From the NCBI GenBank assembly GCA_951406725.2, contig OX597819.1, positions 40,052,001 to 40,116,000 on the forward strand: a stretch of DNA of 64,000 nt, given 5' to 3'. Under the pieces are notes generated by a model. It made no database searches. It was given only the letters and a program-made list of their open reading frames with translations, and was not told where the DNA came from. The position numbers and the translations under genes were made by a program. Shown here piece after piece: positions 12,890 through 55,550 of this stretch (positions within the stretch are counted from its first letter, which is position 1; every line of letters begins with the position of its first letter). Source of the stretch: Octopus vulgaris (Eukaryota).

Positions 12890-13068
12890 TCTCTCTCTCT
12901 CTCTCTGATCGGTCGTGTTATTCTTTGCTCCGCAGTGAAAGATTGTTTTTGTGCTGAAAAGTTTGAAAAATTGCTGTTTTGGTCGTCGAGGCCACTTCTT
13001 TTCTGCTGTTGTAGCAGAGTTCTGCTGTTCTTTCCCCCTTGTTTCAAGGGGGGAAGTGACGAAAAGAC

Positions 13069-14400
13069 ATGAATTTGCAACCAGTCTCCTCCGAGTCGGA
13101 GGAAAACGTTGAAAATTTGTTTGAAGGCATGAAGGCGAAAATGCGGGAGGAGGAAGGTAGAAGTAAAGAGACGTCTCACGCGAGCGTTACAAAAGCAGAC
13201 GACAATATGTCTGGCGAAGCTAGTAAACGACAAGAAAAGGCAAAAATAAATTTTGCGAGTGCAGCAACTCGCCCCTGTGAAAATATAGTCATCAACAAGG
13301 AAGAATTAAAGAAATACCAAGGACTACTAAAAAAAGAAGGTGATAATGTGAAGTTGTTCCCTCCCAGTGAATTGATTTACGCGACGGAGAGAAAAACTGT
13401 CATATACAAGACGTATAATGTCAAAAATAAGAAAATTGACTTCGTACAGAGAGAAGCCATTGAAAAATGTTTGAGGCCGATATGGCAACAAACTACGTTT
13501 ATAACAAGGGGTAGTCGCTTCGGCACGGTAGAGGTGCGTTTCCCTAGCGAAGAAATAGCTAGGGAACATTCAACAAGAACGTTGAAGTCAGAAGAGGTAG
13601 TTCTTTTACCATTATATTTAGGAATGAGAACTAGCAGGATAACAGTCACGGATATTCCGCCCGAAATAGATGTGGACTTTGTAACAGCAGCGATTCTCTT
13701 TGGCAAAGAGGAAGAAATTGCCATTCTTCAGTCTAAAAGATATCGCCCCACAACCTGGTATAGACAGGACTTAGAGCTTGTGATCCAAGCGAACCCCTCG
13801 GACTTAGAAAAATTGCCAAGCTCCCTCACCATTGGAGATAATACCACCTTGATGGTAATAGTCGAGGGAAGAAAACCGAGGTGCTATAAATGTGGCGAGA
13901 AAGGCCACATAAGGTCGAGCTGCAAGAAGACAGCGAAAGAAAATACTGCAGAGGCAAGCACGACGCCGAAAACAACTTCACCGCTAGAAATAGCAGCCAC
14001 GTCGCGCACCCCAATTGCCGAAATTCAGCCGACAACGGGAGAAAACAACGACAACAACGATGACAACAACAACAACAACAACATCCAGGAGTGGGTCAAC
14101 GTGGAAGCTTCAAAAAGAAGACAGAAACGGAAAATTCCGCCCTCTTCGGATACACAGGACTATACTCTGACACAGACAAGCACACCCACACCCACAAATA
14201 CAGTCGCAAACACACACGTAGCCAAAAAAACACACACACTGGAAAAAGCACACACAAACACTCACACACCTACCACAAGCACGCACACACCTACAAACAC
14301 CCACGCTTCTACAAGCACACACACACCCACAAACACACACACACAGCCCCCTCCACAATCACCTAACAAAAAAAAGAAACACCTTCACGGCGATAAATAA
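13069..14400 (+). CDS. LINE ORF1, gag-like nucleic-acid-binding protein with a CCHC zinc knuckle
   Basis: 443 aa with CYKCGEKGHIRSSC. A one-base shift in the A-run near 14370 would extend the frame to TAA at ~14689 with one internal stop, so the C-terminus is probably damaged. Confidence 0.85.
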   Translation: MNLQPVSSESEENVENLFEGMKAKMREEEGRSKETSHASVTKADDNMSGEASKRQEKAKINFASAATRPCENIVINKEELKKYQGLLKKEGDNVKLFPPSELIYATERKTVIYKTYNVKNKKIDFVQREAIEKCLRPIWQQTTFITRGSRFGTVEVRFPSEEIAREHSTRTLKSEEVVLLPLYLGMRTSRITVTDIPPEIDVDFVTAAILFGKEEEIAILQSKRYRPTTWYRQDLELVIQANPSDLEKLPSSLTIGDNTTLMVIVEGRKPRCYKCGEKGHIRSSCKKTAKENTAEASTTPKTTSPLEIAATSRTPIAEIQPTTGENNDNNDDNNNNNNIQEWVNVEASKRRQKRKIPPSSDTQDYTLTQTSTPTPTNTVANTHVAKKTHTLEKAHTNTHTPTTSTHTPTNTHASTSTHTPTNTHTQPPPQSPNKKKKHLHGDK

Positions 14401-14708
14401 AAACAATAACCCATTAAGGGAAAAAATTAATTTACTGAAATCGGCGAAAAAATATATCGCAACAGATATAAATAGTATTATATCTGAAAATGTAGAATTT
14501 TATACGATAGATAACGCGGATTATTTTGAAATTTAAAAATCTTTTGCGGAGGACGTAGGCCCGTTACAGATGAACTTTTCAAGCCATCTGTACAAGCAAT
14601 TCGCAAAAAAACTGACCTCGCAAAACACAACACTCACAGACAGAAAAGATGAGGGTGAAACTACACCCTCTCTTCTGTTAAAACAGTAAGTTTTAAACAT
14701 TCGACTAA

Positions 14709-17700
14709 ATTTTCACTTTCTCGTTTAAACTCGGTTGTATAAATACTCGCGGCCTGGGGTCGTATTGGAAGCAAGGCTACCTCCTTAACGACCTTAGGTC
14801 GCATCGTTTGGATGTAGTGGTAATTACCGAATCCAGACTGAGTGGGCTGCAGGCCTTTTCGCCCCTTCTAAACGGCTACGAGAAATACATTTCTCCCTGT
14901 CGACCTGGAGGGGGAGGAGGAGTGGCAGTGCTGGTCAGGAAAAACCTGGATTTAGAGATTAGAACTGTCTTTATAGATCCGGAAGGCAGGTTGGTCGTTT
15001 TGGATGTGACGCACAGCAGTGGTAAAGTGTTCAGGCTGGTCGCTGTCTATGCTCCCTGCGAAGGAAAAGCCGGGCAGAAAGAGTATTTCAAAAGCCTAGA
15101 GAATTTTCTTGGCACGTCGAACACGTTAGTATTGCTAGGTGACTTCAACATAATTTGCGATGCAAGCGTAGATTATGTTGGCTCGAGAAAGAATACGAGG
15201 GGATTACCTCACCTCAACGATATGCTAAGTCGTTTCGAATTGGCAGATAGATTCAGACTGGACCATCCAGACACTCCAGCGTGGACCTGGGCAAGAAACG
15301 ACGGGTCGTCCAGATCTTATATCGATAGAATCATAACTAGAAGGAAAGATAAGAAAATACTTAGCTGTCCATAACACCATATCGTAGGCTACAGCGATCA
15401 CAAATTAGTGACCTGTACGCTCGACATAGATGGCATGTGTAGACGAGGTACCGGTTACTGGAAGCTAAACAAGTCACTATTGGACTGTGAAGCCTACAGG
15501 AATCGGATTAAACAATTAGTAATGAGGGCGTTAACCGGATCCATTATCAACAATAAATGGTGGTACGCCCTGAAAAGAGCCATCAAATTTGAGTCAATTA
15601 GGTTTAGCAAAGAAATAGCTAGTGCTAGAAACAAAGTAGAAAAGGAACTAGTTAAGGCAATAGAGGAGGCAATGAGGTCAGGCAGTGCATCGAAAGTGTT
15701 AGCGGCGAGGTTAGCACTAGACCAACATCTCAAAGCTAAACATGAAGGGTGCATTGTCAGGGCTAAGATCCGTGCAATGAGACAGGAAGGGATCAACGCA
15801 GCCGGATGGGCCCGGGTGGTAGAAGGCCAGCGTGGCAACAACTCAACCATTCGATCCTTGACGGGCCCAAATGGTCGATTAGTAAACGAACCCGAGGAGA
15901 TGTGCAAGGTGTTTCATGATCATTTCGCCCAGCTATTCGGGAGGAGCGGCGGGCTGGAGCGCGGGGAGAAGCTCGCAGACTTCCTAGCCGGTTCGCCGCG
16001 TCTATCGGGGCCGGACGCGGAATCTTGTAAGGCGCCGATCACAGCCAAAGAAGTCGTGGATATGTTGGCAGACTGCGGCGGGGACAAGTCGCCGGGACTC
16101 GATGGTCTGCCTTACGAACTCTATAGTAGCATGCCAGACTTGTTTGGGCACCTACTTGCATGCGTGTACACCAACTGGCAGCAGAACGGGAGAATTCCTA
16201 AGTCTGTGAGCCGAGGGGTGGTAGCGCTGTTAAGAAAGGACCCAAACAAGGGGGATTTAATTGATAATTTCCGGCCTATCACCCTGCTTAACGCAGAGTT
16301 GAAGATCTTGGCCAAGGTCTTAGCAAAAAGGTTGGCGAGGGTCGTGGGTGAACTTGTTGGCGAGGCGCAAACTTGCGCCATCCCTGGAAGGACCATCCAC
16401 GACAATCTCCACTTTCTACGCTATGCCTTAGAAAGGGTAAATAGGATTCCTGGCAAGGGTGGGGCTATGGTCCACTTGGACCAATCGAAAGCGTTTGATA
16501 GGGTGGACCATCAGTATCTGGCGGCGGTCCTCGCGGCGGCTGGCTTCGGCCCGACCTTCCGCGGGTGGATCATCGCTTTATACAGCAACATCGAATCGGT
16601 AGTTCGGGTAAATGGTTTCCTTTCGGAGCCGTTCAGCATTGAACGTTCGGTACGTCAAGGGTGTCCTCTCTCCCCGCTTCTCTACGTTTTGGCCCTCGAG
16701 CCGTTGCTGAGGAGGTTGGAAACTATGAGAGGCACCCCGCAAGATCTAGGGTGCGGAAAGTCAGCTTCGGCGTATGCGGACGACATCACCGTCATCGTTT
16801 CCCGAGTCGAGCACCTACAGTGGGTGGGTGAGGCCTTAAGGGACTACGAAGCGGTTGCAGGAGCGAAAGTCAACCGGGATAAATCGGTCGGCTTGCAACT
16901 CGGCACATGGAGGGGCAAGTCGATGTCTTCCGACAGCGTCGTAGGGCGTTGGACGGAAGGACCGGTGAAAATGCTTGGGATCTGGTTAGGTCCAGATCTC
17001 CAGATAGAGAAGAACTGGAGCGAGGTGGCGAGAAAGGTGGCTCTCCTAACTCAGACATGGTCTGAGCGGAAACTATCCTTGAAAGGGAGGGCGGAGGTTG
17101 CAGAAGTGTTTATCGCCTCTGTAATCACTTACCGCCTAACCGTAATGCCTTGCCCCGATTCGTGGCTGAACAAACTGGAACGCATGCTCTTTCGCTTTTT
17201 GTGGAGGGGCAGCAGACCTCTTGTAAGGCGCTCTATTTGCTGCCAAAAGCCGCTGAAGGGTGGGTTAGGGATGCCGTGGCTAAAAATGCGCAGACATGCG
17301 CTCAGGCTTAGGCACCTCTGGATTTACCTGGACGGTGAGCAGGTGTGGTCTCCGTTTGTCAAGCTGTTATTTCCACAGTTCACATCGTTTAACGAACTGA
17401 ACCTATGGATCAAGTGTAGACCGAGGTTGGGCATGTGGCATGCAGAGTGCTATCAGGCACTCGTGCTTCTCTCCCAGTCGGGCAACGCCGGTGGCGGGGC
17501 TACTACCGCTTTCTTCTATAGAGGGTTAGTAGAGTTTAAGTGTGTCGACGTCCTAGGAGAAACTCTGGGCTTCGACGAAAATCAACTGGCCAGCCTGTTC
17601 CAAAGAACATTCGGTCCGGGGCCTATGGATAATTACCAAAAGTCCCTGGTCTGGCAATGTTACAGAGGAGCTTTACCGGTTCGAGATAAGCTCTTTAGAC

Positions 17701-18125
17701 ATGGGTGTGCACCTTCGCCGGTTTGTGCAAGATGTAAGAGGGACAGTAAAACTGTCCTGCACGCGATTGTGCAATGCCCCAAGGTGACTGAACTCTGGGC
17801 TTATGTCGAACACCTGCTGTCGCATTCGAGAAGAGTACAACTGTCGAGCGAATCTGTAATTAAGATAGTTCCGCCGACCTTCCTGAATAGGGAGGAGCGA
17901 GCCTGTTTTCTTTCGGTAGTTGCTATGGCGAAAGAAGTAGTGTGGAAGACGAGAGTAAAAGGAATTGCAACAGGCATGTTTATCTCCAGTCTCGAGCTAA
18001 TCGACTTTTTCGTTTTCCACATGAAACGGAAAATAAGGCTGGAGAAGAAATGCCTGTCGCAAAGTGTGTTTCGTAAAAGATGGAAGTCTATAGCAAGTAT
18101 GTTGCGAGTGAAAGAACCTGTTTAA
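14709..18125 (+). pseudogene. LINE ORF2: APE endonuclease, reverse transcriptase and C-terminal CCHC, with one premature TAA at 15372-15374
   Basis: One frame reads KLGCINTRGL, ITES, VAVYAP, LGDFN, SYIDR, *, YSDH, YWKLN, KSPGLDG, FRPITLLN, LDQSKAFDRV, SVRQGCPLSP, AYADD and CARCKRDSKTVLHAIVQC. There is no ATG ahead of the APE start. Confidence 0.93.
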
Positions 18126-19905: not shown

Positions 19906-20130
19906 GGTGGCAGAAACGTTAGCACGCCGGGCGAAATGCGTAGCCGTATTTCGTCTGCCGCTACGTTCTGAGTTCAAATTCCGCCGAGGTCGACATTGCC
20001 TTTCATCCTTTCGGGGTCAATTAAATAAGTACTAGTTGCGCACTGTGGTCGATGTAATCGACTTAATCCGTTTGTCTGTCCTTGTTTGTCCTCTCTGAGT
20101 TTTGCCCCTTGTGGGTAGTAAAGAAATAGG
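19906..20130 (+). mobile_element. Meta-domain-like tRNA SINE
   Basis: ggcagaaacgttagcacgccgggcgaaatg..gagttcaaattccgccgagg..tttcatcctttcggggtc. Confidence 0.85.
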
Positions 20131-21443
20131 TATGATGGGGTGTCAGACATCCAGGATATGTGATAACCAACCTGCCAATGGTTTTTGTCCTCTCCAATGG
20201 CATTGTGTAGCGTCTTGAGTGGAAAAAATTGCCAAATACTTGATGTCGAATGATACGCTACTCGATGCATTTTTCTGGCATTTGTCTTTTCTTGTATTAG
20301 TCATACTAGCTGTCCTACTTCTTCGTCTAAAAAACACTATTCTGTGATTCTGGGGTAACTACAAGACAGATATCTTCCTCCAGTCTACAAAGCAAAAGTC
20401 TTGCATTGCAAATACCATGCCAACGGCTTCCAAAAGAGTGATACCATGATAGTCGCCACGCAAATTTTTCACATTTGCCTTCGTCTAGCGATAACAGAAT
20501 TCCATTAGTCCAATATTGTGGAATCGGGGTCCCGTTCCAACTATTAATAGTGAAGTTGTTTATTTTGTTTATTGCTTCCTTTAAATTATCGCTTCCGACT
20601 TTCAGCAGTTTGACTAGGAGGCTATCTTGACCTGGTGCTTTGCCAGAATCAACCTGTTTGAAATAGACGAAATGACTGAGTCAAAACCTTGAAATCACAG
20701 TACTGTATTTCAAGTGATATATAAAAAAAAGCCATACCTAAACAGGGACTGGTGTCGCTAGTTAGATTGTTAAAAATATATATATTAATACTGCAGCTAT
20801 CGCTAATATATATCTTTTAACAAGCTAACTGGCTAATCGCGATATCAGTGCCTGTTCAGGAACGGATTTTCTGCATATCGCTAGCGAGAAGATGAGTCGC
20901 TGTTATATCTAGCGGCCGAACGTCCGTCACCGATGAAACTAAGATAGGTCGAAATCACGTGAACTGGTGGTCATAGCGCTCACGATATAAACAAAAAAGT
21001 GTATATTCTGCACCGAGGGCTTATATGAGAGTTTCTCTCTTGGTGTCTTCTGCAGTAAGGTTTCTTCTATCAGAGCATCCACGTTAAAATGAGAATACGT
21101 ATTACCTCTCCGTATTGATACTGCCTTTGTCTCTTTTACATGCATGCATGCATGCATCCATCCATCCATCCATCCATCCATCCATCCATCCACCCATACA
21201 TACATACATACATACATACATACATACATACATACATACATACATACATACATACATACATACATACATGTATTTGAATTTGCATACAAACAAACACAGA
21301 CAATGAGCAGGAAAATACCATTTTCTGTAATTTGTTTTTATTTTATATTTTGCCATGCGACCATATTGTCCACCGTTAGTGGATGTATAGATATATGTCT
21401 GGCGTTTATCGACTTAAAGCGGATTCTGTTCCGTTGTAACTAT

Positions 21444-21479
<36 letters not shown>

Positions 21480-21911
21480 GAAATGAAGAAAATGCTGACA
21501 AAATAATTTAAGTAAGGGAGAGTGTATTTAAATAGGTGAAAGTTCTTTTTACCGGTTGCGCATTTCTTATGCTTATCAAAAGATATTTTTAAAGAGAGAT
21601 AGAGTTCCTTTCTGATAGATTTTTTTCTCTTATCTGACTTTATGTTGGGTTTGCTGTCTCTTATATGTGAAAAAAGAGGTTCCAGAGTTGTTTAAGATTT
21701 GCTTGGTTTCGCGCCTAAAATTTCTTGTGGACAATGGTCAATACAATTTTGATTGGTCATTATAAAGGGGTCACGTGAATGTTTGAATGGAAGTTGGTGT
21801 TGGGGTAAGAAAATAGGCTCCAAAGATGTTAAAATTTGGCTAGTGTCGCGCCTAAAATTTCTTATTGGTCATAATAAAGAGGTCACGTGGATGTGGTCAT
21901 AATAGAGAGGT
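19990..21911 (-). repeat. Left arm of a ~1.9-kb inverted duplication (partner 23759-25711)
   Basis: Reverse-complement identity across SINE, RTE fragment, unique DNA, microsatellites and the Penelope terminus, with only scattered substitutions. Confidence 0.93.
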
Positions 21912-22652: not shown

Positions 22653-24190
22653 GAGGAAAGAGTCAAAACAATCGATGAAGAGATCCTCCTCGTAATAAAT
22701 AGCAAGGCCGAAAGCCTACACATAGAGAAGATCTCCAAGTTATGGAAAGATGACTGCAATAAAGAGGAACTAAAATCCCTACAACGCTGGGAAAAAAGTG
22801 CCGCCTGGTTCCTAAACTATGAATCGACTTTCAAAACGGATTACTTTTCCAATAACCCGTTCATAAAAATGGGAAAACCAGGAACCCAACCACACAACTA
22901 CTCCGCCAACCCTCCAACCTCGAACAAAAGAAGGAAACAGCATATTGAAGATGTACCTTCTTACCCCACGTCCATAAGGAGGAACAAGAACCCTGGAAAC
23001 CCTCACCACCAGAATTACATTAACGAATTTCCCTTTTCAAGGAGACACTATACACAACAACTCAACAACTACTCGAATACCTTATTAACAAATAAAAGAG
23101 GATTCCACTACCAGGATAGACACAACAACATCCACACCACGAGGGGACAACAAGGTAATTTTCACTTTCTCAACTCTCACAATACACAACAAGCCCATAC
23201 CACTTGATACAAGCACCCACGTAGGCCACTCATATCACCACAATCCATCACGACACAAAGAAACACACACCAACACCCGCAATACAGGAACACCCCATTC
23301 TATCCACAACCACGAACCCGAACCATATTTCACAACAAGGAATATAACAAACACACAGGACCTCTTAACACCAACAGACAACCCCTCTACCCCAACCATT
23401 TTTTAGACACAGCACACAGATACAGGCAAACAAAATAACACAGGACAGGGAAGAGAAACAGAAACTAATTAAAGTCATCAATTTAACCAATACAGAACCC
23501 AACCCCAACCTTCTCAACTTACTCTCCAAAGGTCTTAAATTCACAACCCCCCCCCACGTCCAAACTACTACGAAATGAAGGAAGACATTACAGAATTTTG
23601 TAGAAAATTGCAACTTAGTGAGGAACTATTCGACCAGCACAATGAGGATGAGTCACTAGCTAGAAATAAAAGCAACTACACCCCACCAAAAGGTAGAAAT
23701 AAAATCCTAGACGAATTCTGTGAGCACATTACAAACTTCCCCACCAACACTTACACAAACCTCTCTATTATGACCACATCCACGTGACCTCTTTATTATG
23801 ACCAATAAGAAATTTTAGGCGCGACACTAGCCAAATTTTAACATCTCTGGAGCCTATTTTCTTACCCCAACACCAACTTCCATTCAAACATTCACGTGAC
23901 CCCTTTATAATGACCAATCAAAATTGTATTGACCATTGTCCACAAGAAATTTTAGGCGCGAAACCAAGCAAATCTTAAACAACTCTGGAACCTCTTTTTT
24001 CACATATAAGAGACAGCAAACCCAACATAAAGTCAGATAAGAGAAAAAAATCTATCAGAAAGGAACTCTATCTCTCTTTAAAAATATCTTTTGATAAGCA
24101 TAAGAAATGCGCAACCGGTAAAAAGAACTTTCACCTATTTAAATACACTCTCCCTTACTTAAATTATTTTGTCAGCATTTTCTTCATTTC

Positions 24191-24193
<3 letters not shown>
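22653..24193 (+). mobile_element. Penelope-like element: N-terminal ORF fragment joined directly to the pseudo-LTR
   Basis: VINLTN..LLNLLSKGLKFTTP..EDITEFCRKLQLSEELF..KSNYTPPKGRNKILDEF resembles the pre-RT region of Penelope ORFs. It jumps at 23759 into the pLTR and ends in (TA)n. Confidence 0.75.
24087..24126 (+). ncRNA. Variant or degenerate minimal hammerhead ribozyme in the Penelope pLTR (mirror copy at ~21544-21583, minus strand)
   Basis: UUGAUAA-GCAU(aagaa)AUGC-GCAAC-CG-GUA: U3/A8 in place of C3/G8, C at position 13, palindromic ACCGGU stem III and a weak stem I. Confidence 0.45.
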
Positions 24194-24258
<65 letters not shown>

Positions 24259-25029
24259 ATAGTTACAACGGAACAGAATCCGCTTTAAGTCGATAAACGC
24301 CAGACATATATCTATACATCCACTAACGGTGGACAATATGGTCGCATGGCAAAATATAAAATAAAAACAAATTACAGAAAATGGTATTTTCCTGCTCACT
24401 GTCTGTGTTTGTTTGTATGCAAATTCAAATACATGTATGTATGTATGTATGTATGTATGTATGTATGTATGTATGTATGTATGTATGTATGTATGTATGT
24501 ATGTATGTATGTATGTGGATGGATGGATGGATGGATGGATGGATGCATGCATGCATGCATGTAAAAAAGACAAAGGCAGTATCAATACGGAGAGGTAATA
24601 CTTATTCTCATTTAAACGTGGATGCTCTGATAGAAGAAACCTTACTGCAGAAGACACCAAGAGAGAAACTCTCATATAAGCCCTCGGTGCAGAATATACA
24701 CTTTTTTGTTTATATCGTGAGCGCTATGACCACCAGTTCATGTGATTTCGACCTATCTTAGTTTCATCGGTGACGGACGTTCGGCCGCTAGATATAACAG
24801 CGACTCATCTTCTCGCTAGCGATATGCAGAAAATCCGTTCCTGAACAGGCACTGATATCGCGATTAGCCAGTTAGCTTGTTAAAAGATATATATTAGCGA
24901 TAGCTGCAGTATTAATATATATATTATTAACAATCTAACTAGCGACACCAGTCCCTGTTTAGGTATGGCTTTTTTTATATATATCACTTGAAATACAGTA
25001 CTGTGATTTCAAGGTTTTGGCTCAGTCAT

Positions 25030-25540
25030 TTCGTCTATTTCAAACAGGTTGATTCTGGCAAAGCATCAGGTCAAGATAGCCTCCCAATCAAACTGCTGAA
25101 AGTCGGAAGCGATAATTTAAAGGAAGCAATAAACAAAATAAACAACTTCACTATTAATAGTTGGAACGGGACCCCGATTCCACAATATTGGACTAATGGA
25201 ATTCTGTTATCGCTAGACGAAGGCAAAGGTGAAAAATTTGCGTGGCGACTATCATGGTATCACTCTTTTGGAAGCTGTTGGCATGGTATTTGCAATGCAA
25301 GATTTTTGCTTTGTAGACTGGAGGAAGATATCTGTCTTGTAGTTACCCCAGAATCACAGAGTAGTGTTTTTTAGACGAAGAAGTAGGACAGCTAGTATGA
25401 CTAATACAAGAAAAGACAAATGCCAGAAAAATGCATCGAGTAGCGTATCATTCGACATCAAGTATTTGGCAATTTTTTTCCACTCAAGACGCTACACAAT
25501 GCCATTGGAGAGGACAAAAACCATTGGCAGGTTGGTTATC
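25030..25540 (+). pseudogene. Old RTE-like LINE reverse transcriptase fragment (mirror at ~20165-20670)
   Basis: KQVDSGKASGQDSLPIKLLKVG..IPQYWTNGILLSL..KGEK, then frameshifted YHGITLLEAVG and PESQS.F motifs. Confidence 0.6.
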
Positions 25541-25794
25541 ACATATCCTGGATGTCTGACACCCCATCATACCTATTTCTTTACTACCCACAAGATGCTA
25601 AACACAGAGAGGACAAACAAGGACAGACAAACGGATTAAGTCGATTACATCGACCCCAGTGCGCAACTGGTACTTATTTAATCGACCCCGAAAGGATGAA
25701 AGGCAAAGTCGTCCCCTCTATGTTTAGCCCCTTGTGGGCAATAAAGAAATAAATATCTATATATGCATGTATATGTATGTCTTGGAGCTCTCTC

Positions 25795-26660: not shown

Positions 26661-26932
26661 AAATGAAGCTTTAAGTGTCCGGACATACCAACAACAATTC
26701 AGTCTCAATCAGAAAATCTTTCTCTCGTAGATTTCACTCGATTTGGACAACCAAGTTCTGTCGATACTGAGTTTCTTAAAATCTAAAGCAAACTTTATTT
26801 AGAGGGAAAAGAGTTTATCAATTTAGAAGAGATAAATGATACTAAGTGTTTCTTTACTTCCAAACCTGAAGAATTTTACGCCCAAGAGATCGGCAATTAA
26901 ATGGCATTATGTTATCAATAATGAGAGAAAAT

Positions 26933-27140
26933 ATTGGTTTCAAATTCTCGCACAAGGGAAGCAGTTTTGCGGGAAGGGTCAATTCGATTAAATCGACCAC
27001 AGTCCTCAACTGGTACTTATTTTATCGAACCTGAAAGGATGAAAGACAAAGTCGACCTCGGTGGAATTTGAATTCAGAACGTAGAGACGGATGAAATGCC
27101 GCTGAGCATCTTGCCCAGCATGTTAATGATTCTGCTTGCT
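26933..27140 (-). mobile_element. Meta-domain-like SINE, diverged
   Basis: ctggtacttattttatcg..gaaaggatgaaagacaaagtcgacctcgg. Confidence 0.75.
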
Positions 27141-37404: not shown

Positions 37405-38555
37405 AGCTGCCTAACTCAGCTCCATACAACGCTATGACTGGGTGCTAAAACGACTGCTCAACCACTCAAATGTGGAAGTCTTGGGACCACTACTGTTCAT
37501 AATGGCCCTCTCAGACATGCCCTCAGCTACGCAGAGAGCCACGATCACAAGTTATGCAGATGAAACAAAAGTTTCACAGGCAATACAGAACCCTGAAGAC
37601 ACTATGCACCTGCAATGTGAGCTGGACAAAATATACAAGTGGGCTGAAAAGAATAGCATGCAGTTCAATGCTGAAAAGTTTCAAGCTTTATGTTATCAGC
37701 ATGCAAAACTAAATGCAATACCCAATAAATACACTGGACCTGGAGGGATTGCAATCCCAGAGGCACAATCAGTGCGAGACCTGAGTATTTACATGAGTGA
37801 TGATGCAACCTTTCATGTGCATGTTGCTAAATTGGCAATGAAATGTAGGCAGCTGACCGGACGGATTCTTAGAACCTTTAGAACAAGAGACCAGGAAACC
37901 ATGATGGTCCTCTGGAGGACACTTGTCCTAAGCCACTTTGACTATTGCTCTCAGCTATGGTCACCAACCAGTGTCAAATTAATCACAGAACTTGAGGCGA
38001 TCCAACGAAGCTACACGAATAAGTTAGCCTATGTGCAGCATATAAGCTACTGGGAAAGACTCAAGAGATTAAGACTCTATTCCTTAGAGCGTAGGCGAGA
38101 AAGCTATGCCATAATATACATCTGGAAGATCCTGGAGGGACTTGTCCCAAACTTTGGCATTGAGAGTTACACAAATACTAGAACTGGGCGCCACTGCATA
38201 GTTCCAAGGACTCCAAATTTTCCATCAAGATGTAGGACAAGATACTGTGATAGCCTGGGCTTCAGAGACCCACAACTCTTCAATATCCCCCCGAAGAACC
38301 TGAGAGACCTGCATGGAGTAGATGCAGATGTCTTTAAAATAAAACTGGTTCTCTTCCTGTCAGGTGTCCCAGATGAACCAACTTCACGGCAGGAGGTGCA
38401 GATGAGGGCAGCTGCATCGAACTCTCTCATGCACCAAACGGCAATTACTAAAAAGCATTCGTGAAGTAAAATCATGTAGCAACACCAAATGGCGGTGCCC
38501 CAGCATGGCCACAGCTCGTGAGCTGAAACTAGATAAAATAAAATAAAATAAATAA
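37405..38555 (+). mobile_element. 5'-truncated CR1-group LINE (RT C-terminal half, 3' UTR and (TAAAA)n tail), internally deleted
   Basis: SCLTQL..DWVLKRLLNHSNVEV is fused to LGPLLF (the DFAKAFD..GVPQG segment is missing); SYADETK, MQFNAEK, DYCSQLWSP and YWERLKRLRLYSLERRR follow. Confidence 0.88.
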
Positions 38556-38701
38556 ATATATACATATATATATATATATATGCAATAAAAGCAATTAAGA
38601 TTCAAGTCAATTCTAATGAATTTACTTGAATGCGGTACTTAACTTAGATGCACCAGAAAACTATATGGTGTTAACCATACAGTAATGTGGGGTGATTATA
38701 A

Positions 38702-39822
38702 ACGAGAAAGAAGCAACAAGAATGGATTAGTTTTTAGTACAATTGTTTCATACAAAGACAGGCTTTATTAAAAGTTGCAAAAATTGCAGCAGATAAAAGT
38801 GTCCCGTACTCATCAGCTAAAATACATATGAGTTCTCCAAACATCTTAGTGGGTGAGGCTATACTCATGAAGTATTGGAGATAATTTCATTAAAAGCAGA
38901 TTTAGGTTGTAAACAGATTTCCAAAGTTCCTTAATGATGATGCACAGTCATATCACAGGTTTTTAAAAAAAGCTTATTAGCTTCACAGAGAAGGTGAATT
39001 AATCCGTAGTGTAGATGTAAATTTCCAGAGATATGAGGAGGAATTTCATACTCACAGACGATGAATTTATCCATGGTTAATCCACAATGAGGTGGGTATC
39101 ATTTCATGCTATATGATAAGGTATTTGCCACATTACTGTTCTTTTCACAAGACTGCTAAGTTATGACTTCTAAAGGCTGAAGGAATTTTTGTGGAGCAAA
39201 GAAAAGAAAAGAAAGGAAAGAGAAGAAAAGAGACAAGGAAAGGGAAAAAGAAAAAAGAAAAAGGAAAAAGAAAAAAGAAAAAAGGAAAAGAAAAAAGAAA
39301 AAAGAAAAGAGGGGAGAAGAAAAGAAAAAAGAAGAAAAAAGAAAAAGAAAGAAGAAAAAAAGAAGAAAAAGAAAAAAGAAAAAGAAAAAAGAAAAAAGGA
39401 AAAGAAAAAAGAAAAAAGAAAAAGGGGAGAAGAAAAGAAAAAAAGAAGAAAAAGAAAGAAAAAAGAAAGAAGAAAAAAAGAGAAAAGAAAAAAGGGGAAA
39501 GAAAAAAGGGAAAGAAGGGAGAAAAGAAAAAACGCCCACATAGAGTATACTGTGACAACTTGGAGGGAAGGGGGTTCTAAAGTGACATACTACACAGAAG
39601 AATTTGTAGACGGCCTGGCTGGCTTGAATTTGCAAGAATCCAGGAACTATAAGGAGAATATTATTTTTGACCATGGAGCAGAGTTGGCAACCAACCCTGT
39701 TATTTTTATACGGCATTGCTCTCCTAACTATTTCCCAATTAAGGTTATAATTCCTGTTATTATTTTTGAGTTCCCAGATCTTACTTGAAAGTGTGGTGGT
39801 ATCAGCTTTATGATGTAATTTA
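38702..39822 (-). mobile_element. Inverted arm of a Penelope-like insertion
   Basis: Reverse complement of 39866-41594, lacking 40018-40773 (TGG microhomology at the junction). Confidence 0.88.
38732..38822 (-). ncRNA. Type I hammerhead ribozyme (mirror of 41474-41564)
   Basis: Reverse complement of the plus-strand copy with the core intact. Confidence 0.8.
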
Positions 39823-39865: not shown

Positions 39866-41593
39866 TAAATTACGTCATAAAGCTGGTACCACCACACTTT
39901 CAAGTAAGATCTGGGAACTCAAAAATAATAACAGGAATTATAACCTTAATTGGGAAATAGTTAGGAGAGCAATGCCGTATAAAAATAACAGGGTTGGTTG
40001 CCAACTCTGCTCCATGGAGACCTATGAGATTCTAAGGCATAGAAAAAATAGAGGTTTGTTAAATAACCATATTGAAGTAGGTCAAGTTTGTGTCCACGCT
40101 AAATTGAAGACTCTAAAATATTTTAAATGAATAACTGTATAGCATAATCGTAACAAGATAGATAGATAGATATAGCTGGGTTTTTACTAGTATAGCATTA
40201 CTTTAATTTTTAAGTAGATAACTGCGAGTTCTCACACTATAGTTATCTTTTTCTTTATAACTGCACCTGATTTTGAGCACAAGGAAATAAATAGTACTTG
40301 TACGTTGCTTAAATGAAGTTTTATTTAATTTTAAATCTTAATTTTTAATTTTTAATTTTGAATTTAATCTAATTTAAGTAACACAACTTTAATAAAATAA
40401 GTTACTTAGGCTTCATAATTCTTTTACAAAATTAAATAAGTAAGGCTACTCCCTTGAAAAGTAGTATGAGAAATTTCAAAATAATAGACAATTCCATCAC
40501 ACCTTGTAAACTAATCTTCTAAGTTTTGACCTGTAGTCTGTCAATGTATAGATAGTAACGGCAACAATTTAAGACAGTAACAGGAATAAATAAATAAATA
40601 AATTTAAATGACCTCTTGTTAGGATTGCACTTAGATTTTTTCTCTTAATGTATTTCCTTTTGATGATAGCCTTTGACCCCTCTACCCCTGACCTTGTTAT
40701 CTCTTTAGATTCTCTTTAGATTCATATCTGCTTTCAACTACGTCAGGTTGGCAATAAATAGCTGTTTTACTGGTCAAAAATAATATTCTCCTTATAGTTC
40801 CTGGATTCTTGCAAATTTAAGCCAGCCAGGCCGTCTACAAATTCTTCTGTGTAGTATGTCACTTTAGAACCCCCTTCCCTCCAAGTTGTCATAGTATACT
40901 CTATGTGGGCGTTTTTTCTTTTCTCCCTTCTTTCCCTTTTTTCTTTCCCCTTTTTCTTTTTCTTTTTCTTCTTTTTTTCTTCTTTCTTTTTTCTTTTTTC
41001 TTTTTTCTTTTCCTTTTTTCTTTTTCTTTTTCCTTTTTCTTTTTTCTTTTTCCCTTTCCTTGTCTCTTTTCTTCTCTTTCCTTTCTTTTCTTTTCTTTGC
41101 TCCACAAAAATTCCTTCAGCCTTTAGAAGTCATAACTTAGCAGTCTTGTGAAAAGAACAGTAATGTGGCAAATACCTTATCATATAGCATGAAATGATAC
41201 CCACCTCATTGTGGATTAACCATGGATAAATTCATCGTCTGTGAGTATGAAATTCCTCCTCATATCTCTGGAAATTTACATCTACACTACGGATTAATTC
41301 ACCTTCTCTGTGAAGCTAATAAGCTTTTTTTAAAAACCTGTGATAAGACTGTGCATCATCATTAAGGAACTTTGGAAATCTGTTTACAACCTAAATCTGC
41401 TTTTAATGAAATTATCTCCAATACTTCATGAGTATAGCCTCACCCACTAAGATGTTTGGAGAACTCATATGTATTTTAGCTGATGAGTACGGGACACTTT
41501 TATCTGCTGCAATTTTTGCAACTTTTAATAAAGCCTGTCTTTGTATGAAACAATTGTACTAAAAACTAATCCATTCTTGTTGCTTCATTCTCG

Positions 41594-41594
<1 letters not shown>
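39866..41594 (+). mobile_element. Penelope-like element 3' end: GIY-YIG C-terminus and pseudo-LTR
   Basis: TTLSSKIWELKNNNRNYNLNWEIVRRAMPY..CQLCSMETYEIL..LLN..CVH (ORF 39834-40130) is a typical Penelope endonuclease C-terminus; it ends in (TA)n. Confidence 0.88.
41474..41564 (+). ncRNA. Type I hammerhead ribozyme with canonical core and long stem II
   Basis: Stem I UUUUAG (41474-79) with CUAAAA (41559-64); CUGAUGA (41480-86); stem II GUAC..GUAU; GAAAC-AAUU-GUA with predicted cleavage after 41558. Confidence 0.82.
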
Positions 41595-41624
<30 letters not shown>

Positions 41625-42615: not shown

Positions 42616-43333
<718 letters not shown>

Positions 43334-44920
43334 CCACCACTCACCACTTGTATCTCCCCGGAGGTAGCTCCGCTGGCCACTACTGCCCGACGTCTATCCT
43401 TCAGAAAGTCGTGCAGCCACTCTCTAAGTTTTCTGCCCACACCAAGACCACGCAGTTTGTGACATATCATACCGCTGTCGACTTTATCAAAGTCTTCTGC
43501 AAAGTCAAAATATATCACATCCACACTTGAATCATTTCGCAGCTGTCTCAACACCCAGTTGCAGTACTGCAAGGGCTGTGTTAGACAGCTTCCACCTGGT
43601 CGAAATCCATGCTGAGCGCCAGTCAGCAAGTCATTTTCTTCAAGGAACGTGATTAGCTTCCTGCAGACCATTCATTCCATGACTTTGCTGATGTGCGAGG
43701 TCTGAGAGATAGCCCTATAGCTTTTAGCATCTGCTCTGCCTCCTCCCCGACAGATAGAGCACGCTATCCCCTCCTTAAGCTCATCCGGAAGCCTACCATC
43801 CACAAGAAAGCTCTGAAAAAGAAGCTGCAGTGGGTCATCAAGTGCTCGCCAGCACAACACGAGAAGGACCGCTAAAAATCCACCAGGGCAAGCAGCTGAG
43901 TCCACATCTACCCCCACCCATGGCCAGCGCTACATCTTTTTCCTCAATGTTGATGTACTCAATTTTCGTCTCTTTGGTTACAGGTAAAGTGGCAACGAAT
44001 TCTGTTGGTTTGTTCATTTGCCTATGTCCCAGAGGTGTAGTGAACACACTTTGGAACTGTTCGTTCAGTATTTCACTTATCATCATGGGGTTTCCTCTGA
44101 GGAAGCCATCTCCCCGGAAGAGGTGTACCACCCACCCTCCGACGCACTGAGGCCGCCTCTTTGGCATACTTAAAAACTTTGAGGTTCAACTTGATGTTTT
44201 CTATAACCAAAGCTTTTTTTATCTGCTCTCTCCTTCTCATGAGACTGATGCAGACTTGACTTTTTTCAATCTCCAATAACGTTCTCTGCAGGTGAGACTT
44301 CCCACTACTTTTGGGGTGCTTGCTCAGACGGTTCACAATCTTTGTCCGTCGTCTCATAAGAATCTTCCTTTTCCTAGGAATCCTGTTTTTGTGTATGTTA
44401 ACCCCTGCACAATGGGACATATTTGTCATATATGGCTTGTTTTATCGACATTAAATGCTTGCTTTATGTCAATGTCTGGTGTGGAGAGACATTTAGGCCA
44501 ATCCTGTTTGATGATCTCTCTTCCAATCAATTTCCAATTTGCTTTATGAAAATTTAGTTTGGAGAGACTGTGGGTGCTTCGCATAGGCTGCATGTCTGCA
44601 GGGGTTTTTGGTCCACACATAGACAGCTGCACCATATTGTGATCCGAGACCAGTGTCGGCATCACTCTAACACCATGGATAATGTCCTTGTTGTTTGTGA
44701 AGCAGAGATCCAGTATATTATTTGCCCTAGTTGATTGCAGCACAATCTGCTCCATGAAAGAAGCATTGGGAAGGTGGAGCCAGGACTCTGCCTGTGCCAG
44801 CTGGTGGTGTTTTATTCCTGAGAGCATCTGGCCCTCGGCCACCCCACACTGGAGAAGTTAATGTCACCCAAAAGGAATACACTGATGTGTTGTTCCAGTT
44901 TGGTGAGAATTTCTATCTTG
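43334..44920 (-). mobile_element. CR1-group LINE ORF2 fragment (end of endonuclease to mid-RT), frameshifted
   Basis: [51 protein letters not shown] and [10 protein letters not shown] motifs. Confidence 0.88.
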
Positions 44921-45856
44921 GAGTCGATGTAATCGACATATCCTCTCCCCTGAAACTGCTGACATTGTGCTAAAATTTGAAACCAATATTATTCGATTTT
45001 TACGGGAAACTGTGCCACTCGTGACATCCGTTTACAATTAGTGTTAGGGAAAATAGTTGCACCAGTCACTATACTTGTCTCCCTTAGTGAACAGAGTTAC
45101 TTCCCTTCAATGTAAATAAATTTTGTTGCGACACAAATTTGAGTTCATTTTCAGCGTTTTTTTGACTTCTCCTTAGAGAAGACATACGTAATTTCCTTGT
45201 GCCTAATGGTGAAACAATTAGTCTTGGCATTTTTAATGTCAAAAATAAATTATTTAATACTGTGTCAGGCTTGTACGAATATTCTATTGAATTCTCATTC
45301 TGATATGTTTGTAAAACAGTTACCTCTTAAAAAAGGAATATTTTTCACATACTGTACAAAGATATCGTAGCGTGGCCCCAAAGCCACGCTAAAATTTACT
45401 ATAGATTTTATATTAAATTGTAACGCTGCATAGGGACCACTCTGTCCCTCCAAAAGCAGTACAGTATTTTCACTCTGATGAAATTTCAGACGTAATGACT
45501 AATAAAGCCGGTACATAATGTCTAGTTCTAAAAAGTTCAACAGAGCAGATGAGATGATACTTTATTGTAGTTATCTTTCCTTGTTCAATAAATCGATGTC
45601 CGTTCCTCACGTAGATAAATTTAGTCAAGAATACAATATATCATGCCTCCCGTTTGTTATGTTCAACTCCAACAGCATCTTGAGACATTAAACTCTGCTT
45701 CGATCCTCGTCATCATCACCATTTAACGTCTGTTTTCCATGCTGACATGAGTCGGATGGTTTGACAGGAACCGATCAGAAGACTTAAAATGGTTTACACT
45801 GTTTATCAAAGACTTAAAATCATGCTGTGATTGTTGTTTATATAAAAAAAAGAAAA

Positions 45857-54625: not shown

Positions 54626-55374
54626 AGAGAGAGAGAGTATCCCTAAGACACTGGTTATGTTTGCTGAGGGGTTTATTATCTCCCCTGTGATATTTGCACA
54701 GTTTTTTCTTAATGCCATATTCTCATTCAAACGTCATTCACATCAAATGCAGTTATAACAAACCGTCGTGTATCTTGATAAATGATGGAATAAACTATTC
54801 CATCAGGGAAACTCTGGGTGGTTGTATTTTGCAAGGCTTGTGGTTTTTATCATAAAACATATATTTATATATATGTATGTATACATGTGTGTTGTGTGGG
54901 AGGCAGCAACCATAAATAACAATGTGAAGAATAGTATTATTTAAAAGTTTGCTTCAGTGTTGTGCATCAAATATATCTCAAAATATCTTTTTGCTTACCT
55001 GCACAGAATGAATTTCACCTATCTATTTAAACATTTAAAACACGTTATGTACATACCTTATATCTAATGGTAACAGACTTGTATCCAAATTATGTTCCAA
55101 AACAACTAACTCACACAACATCTTCAAAGTTGGAGCTGAAATAACACAAAACAGATTATATATCAGCAGTGTTCAAAACACCAAAACTGCACTATTTAGA
55201 GATTCTTTTTTCTCTTCTTCTCACTCACTGTCTTCCTCAAACACACAAAAATAGGAAACATGCTAGGCATACATTCAGACACTCGCAAACACACACATAC
55301 AAACATGATTGTCCTTCATTGTTTCGATAATGGATAGATACTTTCAGTGAAATTTATTTGACTGATTAAGATTG

Positions 55375-55550
55375 ATCTCAAATTTTGGCACAAGGCCAGC
55401 AATTTCAGGGGAGTGAGTAAGTTGATTATATCGGCTCCACCAGAGTTCAACTGGTACTTATTTTATCAATCCCAAAAGGATGGAATGCAAAATCGATCTC
55501 AGTAGTATTTGAATTCACAGCGTAAAGACAGGCAAAATGCTACAAAACAC
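55375..55550 (-). mobile_element. Meta-domain-like SINE, diverged
   Basis: ctggtacttattttatcaatcccaaaaggatggaa. Confidence 0.65.

What the first reader, a model, noticed from the sequence alone, without database searches (positions are those of the whole stretch)
43334..44170. LINE fragment with clustered sense-strand A-to-G changes: possible fossil of an ADAR-hyperedited RNA
Seen: on the coding (minus) strand, conserved RT motifs deviate mostly through A-to-G-type codon changes. Examples are KSYR for KNYR (aac>agc), PGGF for PDGF, CRGGGR for (Y/H)KGGSR, GGSCLTQ for GRSCLTQ, FAE for [12 protein letters not shown] for RRQAVVANG and LRGLGV for LRDLGI. SSVDV and LRQL stand where the related copy at 37440 has SNVEV and LKRL, and there is a G-run atgggtgggggtagat. 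The upstream part (44170-44920) looks much less affected. The ancestral residues come from my memory of CR1-group motifs, not from an alignment. Inference: the template RNA was A-to-I hyperedited before reverse transcription, fixing the edits in DNA. That would suggest an anti-retrotransposon role for ADAR in a lineage known for heavy editing.
Basis: inference. Interest (0 to 1): 0.75.

Follow-up and report, generated by a model that had tools for sequence, protein, structure and literature searches.

The report
RNA-editing scar in dead LINE copy
A dead jumping-gene copy carries about 60 excess A-to-G changes on one strand that its relatives lack, likely because the RNA-editing enzyme ADAR altered the element's RNA before it was copied into inherited DNA, and a younger copy elsewhere in the genome shows the same scar.

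Summary
Observation confirmed. Window 43335-44914 (minus strand) is a dead, old fragment of an endonuclease-RT LINE. Against the majority of 10 older relatives, its RT part shows A>G at 69 of 272 adenines and T>C at 8 of 183 thymines (p=4e-10); none of the 10 is skewed. The changes ignore codon position, avoid a 5' G, come in patches (5-48%) and have no sibling copy. Short-read DNA contigs, including two other species labels, carry them. CpGs created by A>G have decayed like the original ones, so the changes are old. A younger, independent copy (L162) has 53 of 159 A>G against 2 of 101 T>C, with the ADAR order T>A>C>G. None of 100 unselected copies was hyperedited. Best reading (0.8): ADAR-edited RNA was reverse-transcribed into the germline. 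The dsRNA partner was not found, and a defence role is not shown. Precedents are avian proviruses and L1-made pseudogenes in cultured cells. This scan has noted the same phenomenon repeatedly in this and other genomes.

The parts
43335..44914 (-). Dead LINE fragment: end of the endonuclease domain to mid-RT, positions 272-1851 of the young natural copy L022; truncated at both ends, with small indels
   Evidence: blastn 79.8% to L022 over 1591 columns; indels; L022 has an intact 951-aa frame with RVT_1 and Exo_endo_phos_2
43335..44190 (-). Main A>G-hypermutated region
   Evidence: 69/272 A>G vs 8/183 T>C against older relatives; 49/211 vs 4/138 where both subfamilies agree
43735..43949 (-). Densest block, 30 of 62 adenines changed
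44105..44190 (-). 5' dense block, 12 of 29 adenines changed
43950..44104 (-). Cold gap at background level, 3 of 57 adenines changed
43335..43419 (-). 3' dense block running up to the break, 12 of 29 adenines changed
44610..44680 (-). Small separate A>G cluster (8 of 23). Four sites lie in the 3' arm of a family hairpin (about 44644-44713) and four just downstream
   Evidence: the hairpin in L022 folds at -24.1 kcal/mol, z=-3.5, 0 of 200 shuffles as good; site mapping
42621..43333 (.). (TA)n-rich microsatellite directly abutting the 3' break; the family's normal 3' end is absent
44919..44994 (-). 5' piece of a short interspersed repeat fused in the same orientation to the 5' break of the LINE
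   Evidence: 78-80% matches at 55364-55439 and 26930-26997; its 3' part was not found beyond the TA run

Best explanation
This LINE fragment carries about 55-60 excess A-to-G changes on its sense strand, likely because ADAR deaminated adenosines in a partly double-stranded RNA of the element, which was then likely reverse-transcribed into the germline with inosine read as G. Shown: the strand-specific, codon-blind, 5'-G-avoiding, patchy excess; its presence in DNA of several runs and species labels; its age; and an independent second copy. Inferred: the enzyme; the duplex, probably an antisense or inverted copy supplied from outside, since the LINE RNA has no long internal duplex and no partner lies nearby; and the order of events. 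Because the edits hit conserved RT residues, the RNA was probably copied by an RT made from an unedited RNA, or was edited after translation. The copy is a dead-end fossil.
For: A>G 69/272 vs T>C 8/183 against 10 older relatives, p=4e-10; none of the 10 is skewed (lowest p=0.066), and the four most diverged show 7/260, 9/269, 12/246 and 12/220. Where two subfamilies agree on the base: 49/211 vs T>C 4/138 and G>A 4/136, p=3e-8. Codon positions 22/88, 20/91, 27/88; 31 of 58 changed residues among 220 conserved codons involve A>G. A>C 5 and A>T 4 against A>G 73. 5' G 8/62 vs 61/205, p=0.008, while pooled control copies show no 5'-G dip (0.027 vs 0.028 A and 0.034 C). No 3'-G preference (19/67), matching the published invertebrate hyper-editing motif (PMC5625713, passages). 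No sibling: best other hits 80% and 75%. DNA contigs match the edited letters with 0-5 differences over 130-330 bases, also under species labels B and C. New CpGs lost C>T in 8/20 cases, old CpGs in 4/10, other C in 14/131 (p=0.002). L162, on a younger branch: 53/159 A>G vs 2/101 T>C, codon positions 17/17/19, 5' T 16/21, A 20/50, C 12/47, G 5/36. The genome has adenosine-deaminase-domain matches at four loci.
Against: No duplex partner: there is no inverted copy of the edited span in the window or within 7-9 kb of L162. Edited adenines are not more paired than unedited ones in folds of two natural copies (p=0.30, 0.48), and in one the local pairing around them is slightly lower (p=0.04). The 5'-G depletion is moderate (13% edited vs 30%). 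Edited neighbours are not significantly clustered within the RT part (24 vs 19.7 expected, p=0.13). About 10 apparent A>G may be ancestral. L162 was found by a motif enriched for G (4 of its sites), and the T>C control was run for only one of four motifs. The genome searches score only the best 40 candidates, so a rare sibling could be missed. PF02137 also covers non-ADAR deaminases.
Confidence: 0.8

Rival explanations
1. Edited cDNA overwrote part of an existing genomic LINE copy (RNA-templated gene conversion). ADAR is still the source, but the edits came after insertion.
For: The edited region is patchy and covers only the 3' half of the fragment; the copy lacks the normal 3' end and no target-site duplication was evident.
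Against: Divergence other than A>G is similar upstream (31/459) and in the edited part (66/812, including CpG decay of new sites), and new CpGs have decayed as far as old ones, so the edits look as old as the copy.
Confidence: 0.06
2. A non-ADAR one-off event: an error-prone reverse transcriptase or repair polymerase, a nucleotide-pool imbalance, or deamination of exposed single-stranded DNA during insertion.
For: No dsRNA partner was found; C>T is also in excess on the same strand (29/188 vs G>A 11/175, p=0.007), as single-strand deamination would give.
Against: The C>T excess sits largely at CpGs, 8 of them created by A>G, and is absent in L162 (3/114). Changes at A are almost purely transitions. 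5' C is edited about as often as 5' A (22/73 vs 28/98), unlike a WA-type polymerase signature (recalled). ADAR acting on the cDNA strand of a hybrid (possibility raised in PMC12925331, passage) would give sense T>C, the opposite of what is seen.
Confidence: 0.08
3. The copy belongs to an unseen G-rich subfamily, and the comparison uses the wrong ancestor.
For: The copy is old (about 9% branch); 19 of 39 sites with G in the sister subfamily have G here; only 40 candidates are scored per search.
Against: The excess holds where both subfamilies agree (49/211) and against older relatives (69/272); first and second codon positions are hit as often as third; conserved RT residues are replaced; 50 of 75 G alleles occur in no other copy of this subfamily; two searches found no sibling.
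Confidence: 0.02
4. Slow regional strand-biased mutation (transcription- or replication-coupled) after insertion.
For: A weak excess also appears upstream against older relatives (14/167 vs 2/105, one-sided p=0.02).
Against: The rate swings from 5% to 48% within 200 bases of one copy. The opposite-strand LINE 5 kb away shows no T>C excess (A>G 11, T>C 6 against its closest relative). The upstream excess is mostly one small cluster at a hairpin.
Confidence: 0.03
5. Assembly or sequencing artefact, or edited RNA reads leaking into the assembly.
For: The fragment abuts a 700-base microsatellite.
Against: Contigs from five runs in five studies, under three species labels, match the edited letters; one of them may be the source sample.
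Confidence: 0.01

Closest known systems
ADAR-type A-to-G hypermutation of avian retroviruses (Rous-associated virus, avian leukosis virus) and HTLV-2/STLV-3; review PMC12925331, passages read; primary papers not read
   Same: Dense A-to-G changes (nearly 50% of adenosines in an inverted-repeat region) attributed to ADAR acting on the RNA of a reverse-transcribing element.
   Different: Here a non-LTR retrotransposon of the host germline, old and shared across species labels; no inverted repeat survives beside the edited span.
ADAR-edited processed pseudogenes made by L1 in cultured human cells (PMC11702581, passage read)
   Same: Shows that LINE machinery can write edited RNA into DNA: 3 of 235 insertions had clustered substitutions consistent with ADAR.
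   Different: Somatic, experimental, and confined to inverted Alu pairs in host mRNA; here the LINE's own coding sequence is edited and inherited.
APOBEC 'DNA-edited' retroelements (PMC4866542, PMC2873906; passages read)
   Same: Single genomic copies with strand-biased clustered transitions, read as deaminase footprints fixed at insertion.
   Different: G-to-A on the sense strand, cDNA substrate, LTR elements of vertebrates; reported depleted to noise level in 19 invertebrate genomes. Here A-to-G, RNA substrate inferred, LINE.
A-to-I hyper-editing of repeat RNA in octopus and squid (PMC5625713, PMC9068888; passages read)
   Same: Very high hyper-editing in octopus, directed at repeats; upstream-G depletion with weak downstream-G preference; a role against transposons is suggested there but called unexplored.
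   Different: Those are RNA-DNA differences in transcripts; this one is in the DNA itself.

Membership tests
ADAR hyper-editing footprint | A>G excess on the RNA-sense strand over T>C and other changes | tested here: met
   69/272 vs 8/183; 49/211 vs 4/138 and 4/136
ADAR hyper-editing footprint | Depletion of G 5' of edited A | tested here: met
   8/62 vs 61/205, p=0.008; controls flat; L162 5/36 vs 48/118
ADAR hyper-editing footprint | 3' neighbour preference (G in mammals, weak in invertebrates) | tested here: inconclusive
   none in the window copy (19/67); 20/40 in L162
ADAR hyper-editing footprint | Clustered, dense changes blind to coding | tested here: met
   change-point beats 300 of 300 shuffles; blocks of 41-48%; codon positions equal
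ADAR hyper-editing footprint | Double-stranded RNA substrate (inverted partner) | tested here: not met
   no inverted copy of the span in the window or near L162, and no long internal duplex; only a 70-base hairpin under the small upstream cluster. The donor locus is unknown, so this does not exclude a duplex there.
ADAR hyper-editing footprint | Host encodes ADAR, active in the germline | tested here: inconclusive
   PF02137 matches at four loci; ADAR vs ADAT/ADAD and germline expression not resolved
ADAR hyper-editing footprint | Loss of the signature without ADAR | not testable with these tools
   needs a retrotransposition assay with and without ADAR
Endonuclease-RT LINE (non-LTR retrotransposon) | EN plus RT in one frame, microsatellite-type 3' end, many 5'-truncated copies | tested here: met
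   L022: 951-aa frame, RVT_1 and Exo_endo_phos_2; 3' end; 1216 motif matches; 5' starts spread out
CR1 clade specifically | RT phylogeny with named CR1 elements | not tested
   the label is recalled from motifs; the atlas look-up gave only generic RT clusters
APOBEC DNA-edited retroelement | Sense-strand G>A clusters | tested here: not met
   G>A 8/168, at background
Anti-retrotransposon restriction by mutation | Editing lowers retrotransposition | not testable with these tools
   the edits damage conserved residues, but no rate effect can be read from one or two copies

The most novel reading that the evidence does not exclude
ADAR hyper-editing reaches retrotransposing LINE RNA in the germline of this lineage and has done so repeatedly over the family's history (an old copy, a younger copy, lighter clusters in the sister subfamily). 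It would act as an RNA-level counterpart of APOBEC hypermutation in an invertebrate: the scarred copies would be the visible survivors of a mutagenic defence and a dated fossil record of ADAR activity and specificity.
Probability: 0.35. Interest if true: 0.8.

Novelty: new variant of a known kind. Interest (0 to 1): 0.58.

Why it matters
Whether ADAR editing ever mutates retrotransposons in an inherited way is described as undetermined for Alu (PMC4982230, passage) and as unexplored in cephalopods (PMC9068888); ADAR1's known restriction of L1 appears not to need editing (PMC12925331). Inherited, datable scars in LINE copies would show that RNA edits do become germline mutations. They make the question testable by a genome-wide count of A>G clusters by element class, strand and age, and they preserve past ADAR preferences. 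Their rarity here (0 of 100 unselected copies) suggests a minor contribution to this family's sequence.

Tried and rejected
Sibling copies: two DNA searches (40 of 3593 and 40 of 742 candidates scored) found nothing closer than 80% and 75%; a third, with an old copy, added few age-matched peers. The 37406-38581 copy as the inverted other half of one insertion or as the duplex partner: rejected, since it is a different subfamily and overlaps the fragment by only about 74 bases. Internal RNA structure as the substrate of the main block: not supported. A family-fixed 5' boundary of editing: suggestive at first, but best change-points differ (L022 position 1058-1074 for L162, 1220-1257 for the window copy). 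Loss of the 3' end as a mark of edited copies: both heavy copies lack it, but so do 10 of 100 sampled copies and several old ones; not concluded. Motif searches for more edited copies: four A>G motifs gave L061, L162, L162 again, and nothing; one T>C control gave nothing. No RNA holder listed; the one run guessed to be RNA has a 158-base exact contig at low depth but may be DNA, so it is no evidence on expression. Runs under species labels D and E showed only paralogous pieces; no conclusion. Literature: ten full-text searches found no paper describing inherited ADAR-type LINE copies in an invertebrate. My recollection of a zebrafish case in PMC4866542 was not borne out (no mention of zebrafish). 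PMC8897444 and PMC12458077 (passages) held nothing on point. No supplements were read.

Full report
What is there. The minus strand of 43335-44914 is a fragment of a LINE. The window's genome (2.8 Gb, 227 contigs) holds many copies: a degenerate 26-mer from the RT region matched 1216 places. A young natural copy, L022, has an intact 951-residue frame with endonuclease and RT Pfam matches and served as the coordinate system. The window copy covers L022 positions 272-1851 at 79.8%, has small indels, is fused at its 5' break to a piece of a short repeat and ends at a 700-base TA run with no trace of the family's 3' end. The CR1 label is recalled, not tested. Earlier notes call the genome an octopus; I did not test that.

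Observation check. Against the majority of the 29 other copies fetched (columns with at least 10 copies and 80% agreement), 43335-44170 has A>G at 73 of 266 adenines, T>C at 9 of 175, G>A at 11 of 175 and C>T at 29 of 188; A>C and A>T number 5 and 4. Upstream the figures are 25/254, 9/145, 17/144 and 20/164. The contrast is p=6e-10 in the RT part and p=0.26 upstream. The rate is patchy: 12/29 (44190-44105), 3/57, 30/62 (43949-43735), 17/96, 12/29 (43419-43335), with 8/23 at 44680-44610 and 4/68 and 12/156 elsewhere upstream. A change-point beats all 300 shuffles, but neighbouring adenines within the RT part are not significantly co-edited (p=0.13).

Is the ancestor right? The copy is old: in a tree without the A>G columns it branches near L032, L035 and L040, at about 9%. 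I repeated the count two stricter ways. Where this subfamily (115 loci, some fetched twice) and a sister subfamily at about 75% identity (36 loci) agree on the base, the window has A>G 49/211, T>C 4/138 and G>A 4/136 (p=3e-8). At 39 sites with A here and G in the sister subfamily, 19 have G, so roughly 10 of the 75 apparent changes may be inherited. Against the majority of 10 older copies the count is 69/272 vs 8/183 (p=4e-10), while none of the 10, tested the same way, is skewed (lowest p=0.066; the four most diverged 3-5%). The excess is thus about 55-60 changes. Fifty of 75 G alleles occur in no other copy of this subfamily, and two searches found no sibling (only 40 candidates scored each). 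The changes ignore the code: 22/88, 20/91, 27/88 by codon position; 31 of the 58 altered residues among 220 conserved codons involve A>G.

Is it DNA? Short-read contigs match the window's letters: X2 43340-43471, 43442-43613 and 44053-44358 with no differences; X1 43804-44060 with one; X3 (species label B) 43335-43614 with none and 44052-44358 with four; X6 44131-44358 with five; X9 (label C) 43849-44047 with four and a gap. One run may be the source sample. No listed piece spans the whole stretch, and 43614-43804 is covered among listed pieces only by a run guessed to be RNA (43645-43802, no differences).

Signature. Edited fraction by 5' neighbour: A 28/98, C 22/73, G 8/62, T 11/34 (5' G p=0.008). 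Pooled older copies show no 5'-G dip, though they do show more A>G after T (0.054 vs about 0.03). There is no 3'-G preference (19/67). PMC5625713 (passages) reports upstream-G depletion in all animals and a reduced downstream-G preference in octopus. The genome has 13 exon-level matches to the adenosine-deaminase domain at four loci.

Age. The sense-strand C>T excess (p=0.007) could point to single-strand damage, but it is largely CpG decay. Of 20 CA sites whose A became G, 8 also lost the C to T, against 4 of 10 original CpGs and 14 of 131 other C (p=0.002); in the younger L162 0 of 11 have decayed. The G alleles have therefore sat in methylated DNA about as long as the copy (inference).

Other copies. 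The first 100 of the 1216 motif matches were fetched (a few windows overlap, and the exact motif under-samples old or heavily changed copies, the window's own included). Pooled, A>G was 554/74575 and T>C 307/50241; none resembled the window. One young copy of the sister subfamily, L123, has 6 A>G among 10 differences, five within 44 bases. Four A>G-enriched motifs gave L061 (nine A>G within positions 1592-1643, partly selected, on a diverged background), L162 twice, and nothing; one T>C control gave nothing. L162 is clear: positions 1-1040 have 10/345 A>G, positions 1041-1519 have 53/159 against T>C 2/101, codon positions 17/54, 17/49, 19/51, and 5' neighbours T 16/21, A 20/50, C 12/47, G 5/36. 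It lies on a younger branch; 6 of the 7 other changes it shares with the window are common in older copies. The two copies share 22 G sites, with 29 and 23 private (OR 2.4, p=0.02), as site preference plus a few ancestral G would give. They are independent events.

What is missing. No duplex partner. There is no inverted copy of the edited span in the window or within 7-9 kb of L162. The LINE RNA has no long internal duplex, and edited adenines are not more paired in folds of two natural copies. The only strong structure is a 70-base hairpin (z=-3.5) under half of the small upstream cluster. The neighbouring copy at 37406-38581 is of another subfamily and is unskewed, which also argues against a regional strand bias.

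Mechanism. Most likely (0.8) an RNA containing this LINE segment paired with an antisense or inverted copy, ADAR deaminated a quarter to a half of its adenosines in patches, and a LINE reverse transcriptase copied it into the germline. The direction fits editing of the template RNA; deamination of the cDNA strand would read as T>C. The enzyme, the duplex and the route of insertion are inferred. Rivals are a non-ADAR error or deamination event (0.08), conversion of a resident copy by edited cDNA (0.06), regional bias (0.03), an unseen subfamily (0.02) and artefact (0.01).

Known and new. ADAR-type hypermutation recorded through reverse transcription is known for avian retroviruses and HTLV-2/STLV-3 (review PMC12925331, passages) and for 3 of 235 L1-made pseudogene insertions in cultured cells (PMC11702581, passage). 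APOBEC footprints in genomic retroelements are the G>A analogue (PMC4866542, PMC2873906; passages). This scan has recorded the same phenomenon in at least eight other places of this genome and in other genomes (unchecked AI notes, not support); none matched this family by sequence or place. Verdict: a real, well-controlled new variant of a known kind; the defence role remains open.

Noticed in passing
L162 (G000:C29, about 6217993-6219490, +): Second, younger hyperedited copy of the same family: 53/159 A>G from L022 position about 1060 to its 3' break near 1510, with a cleaner ADAR neighbour order than the window copy.
   Followed up: yes
L123 (G000:C1, about 143.85 Mb), L022 positions 1331-1374: Young near-full-length copy of the sister subfamily with only 10 differences, 6 of them A>G and five within 44 bases; candidate light editing.
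   Followed up: partly
L061 (G000:C3, about 178.46 Mb), L022 positions 1592-1643: Local run of nine A>G in a diverged sister-subfamily copy; partly selected by the search motif.
   Followed up: partly
L018, L068, L150: Copies with a sense-strand G>A excess (22 vs 5, 26 vs 8 and 28 vs 13 C>T). In L018 the sites are spread out with mixed contexts. Could be subfamily states, misalignment or a cytidine-deaminase-like effect.
   Followed up: no
window 13060-18125 (+): Near-intact two-ORF LINE of another clade: a zinc-knuckle ORF1 (446 aa) and an EN-RT-zf-RVT ORF2 of 1138 codons with a single in-frame stop at codon 222.
   Followed up: partly
window 19988-21911 / 23759-25714: Inverted repeat of about 1.95 kb at 96.8% with a symmetric mismatch spectrum, no editing signature.
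   Followed up: partly
window 38697-39673 / 40771-41599: Inverted repeat at 90-96% whose arms differ almost only by A/G in both directions; probably from purine-rich simple repeats in the arms, not resolved. A nearby frame resembles a Penelope-type endonuclease from recall; no Pfam match.
   Followed up: partly
window 37406-38581 (+): LINE copy of a third subfamily with an internal deletion of about 200 bases in the RT yet a 349-codon open frame.
   Followed up: partly
L022:954-1023: Family-encoded 70-base hairpin in the endonuclease region (z=-3.5), overlapping the window's small upstream A>G cluster.
   Followed up: partly
G000:C6:132220394-132222819: Adenosine-deaminase domain encoded in only two long exons, unlike the three multi-exon loci on C1, C5 and C30.
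   Followed up: no
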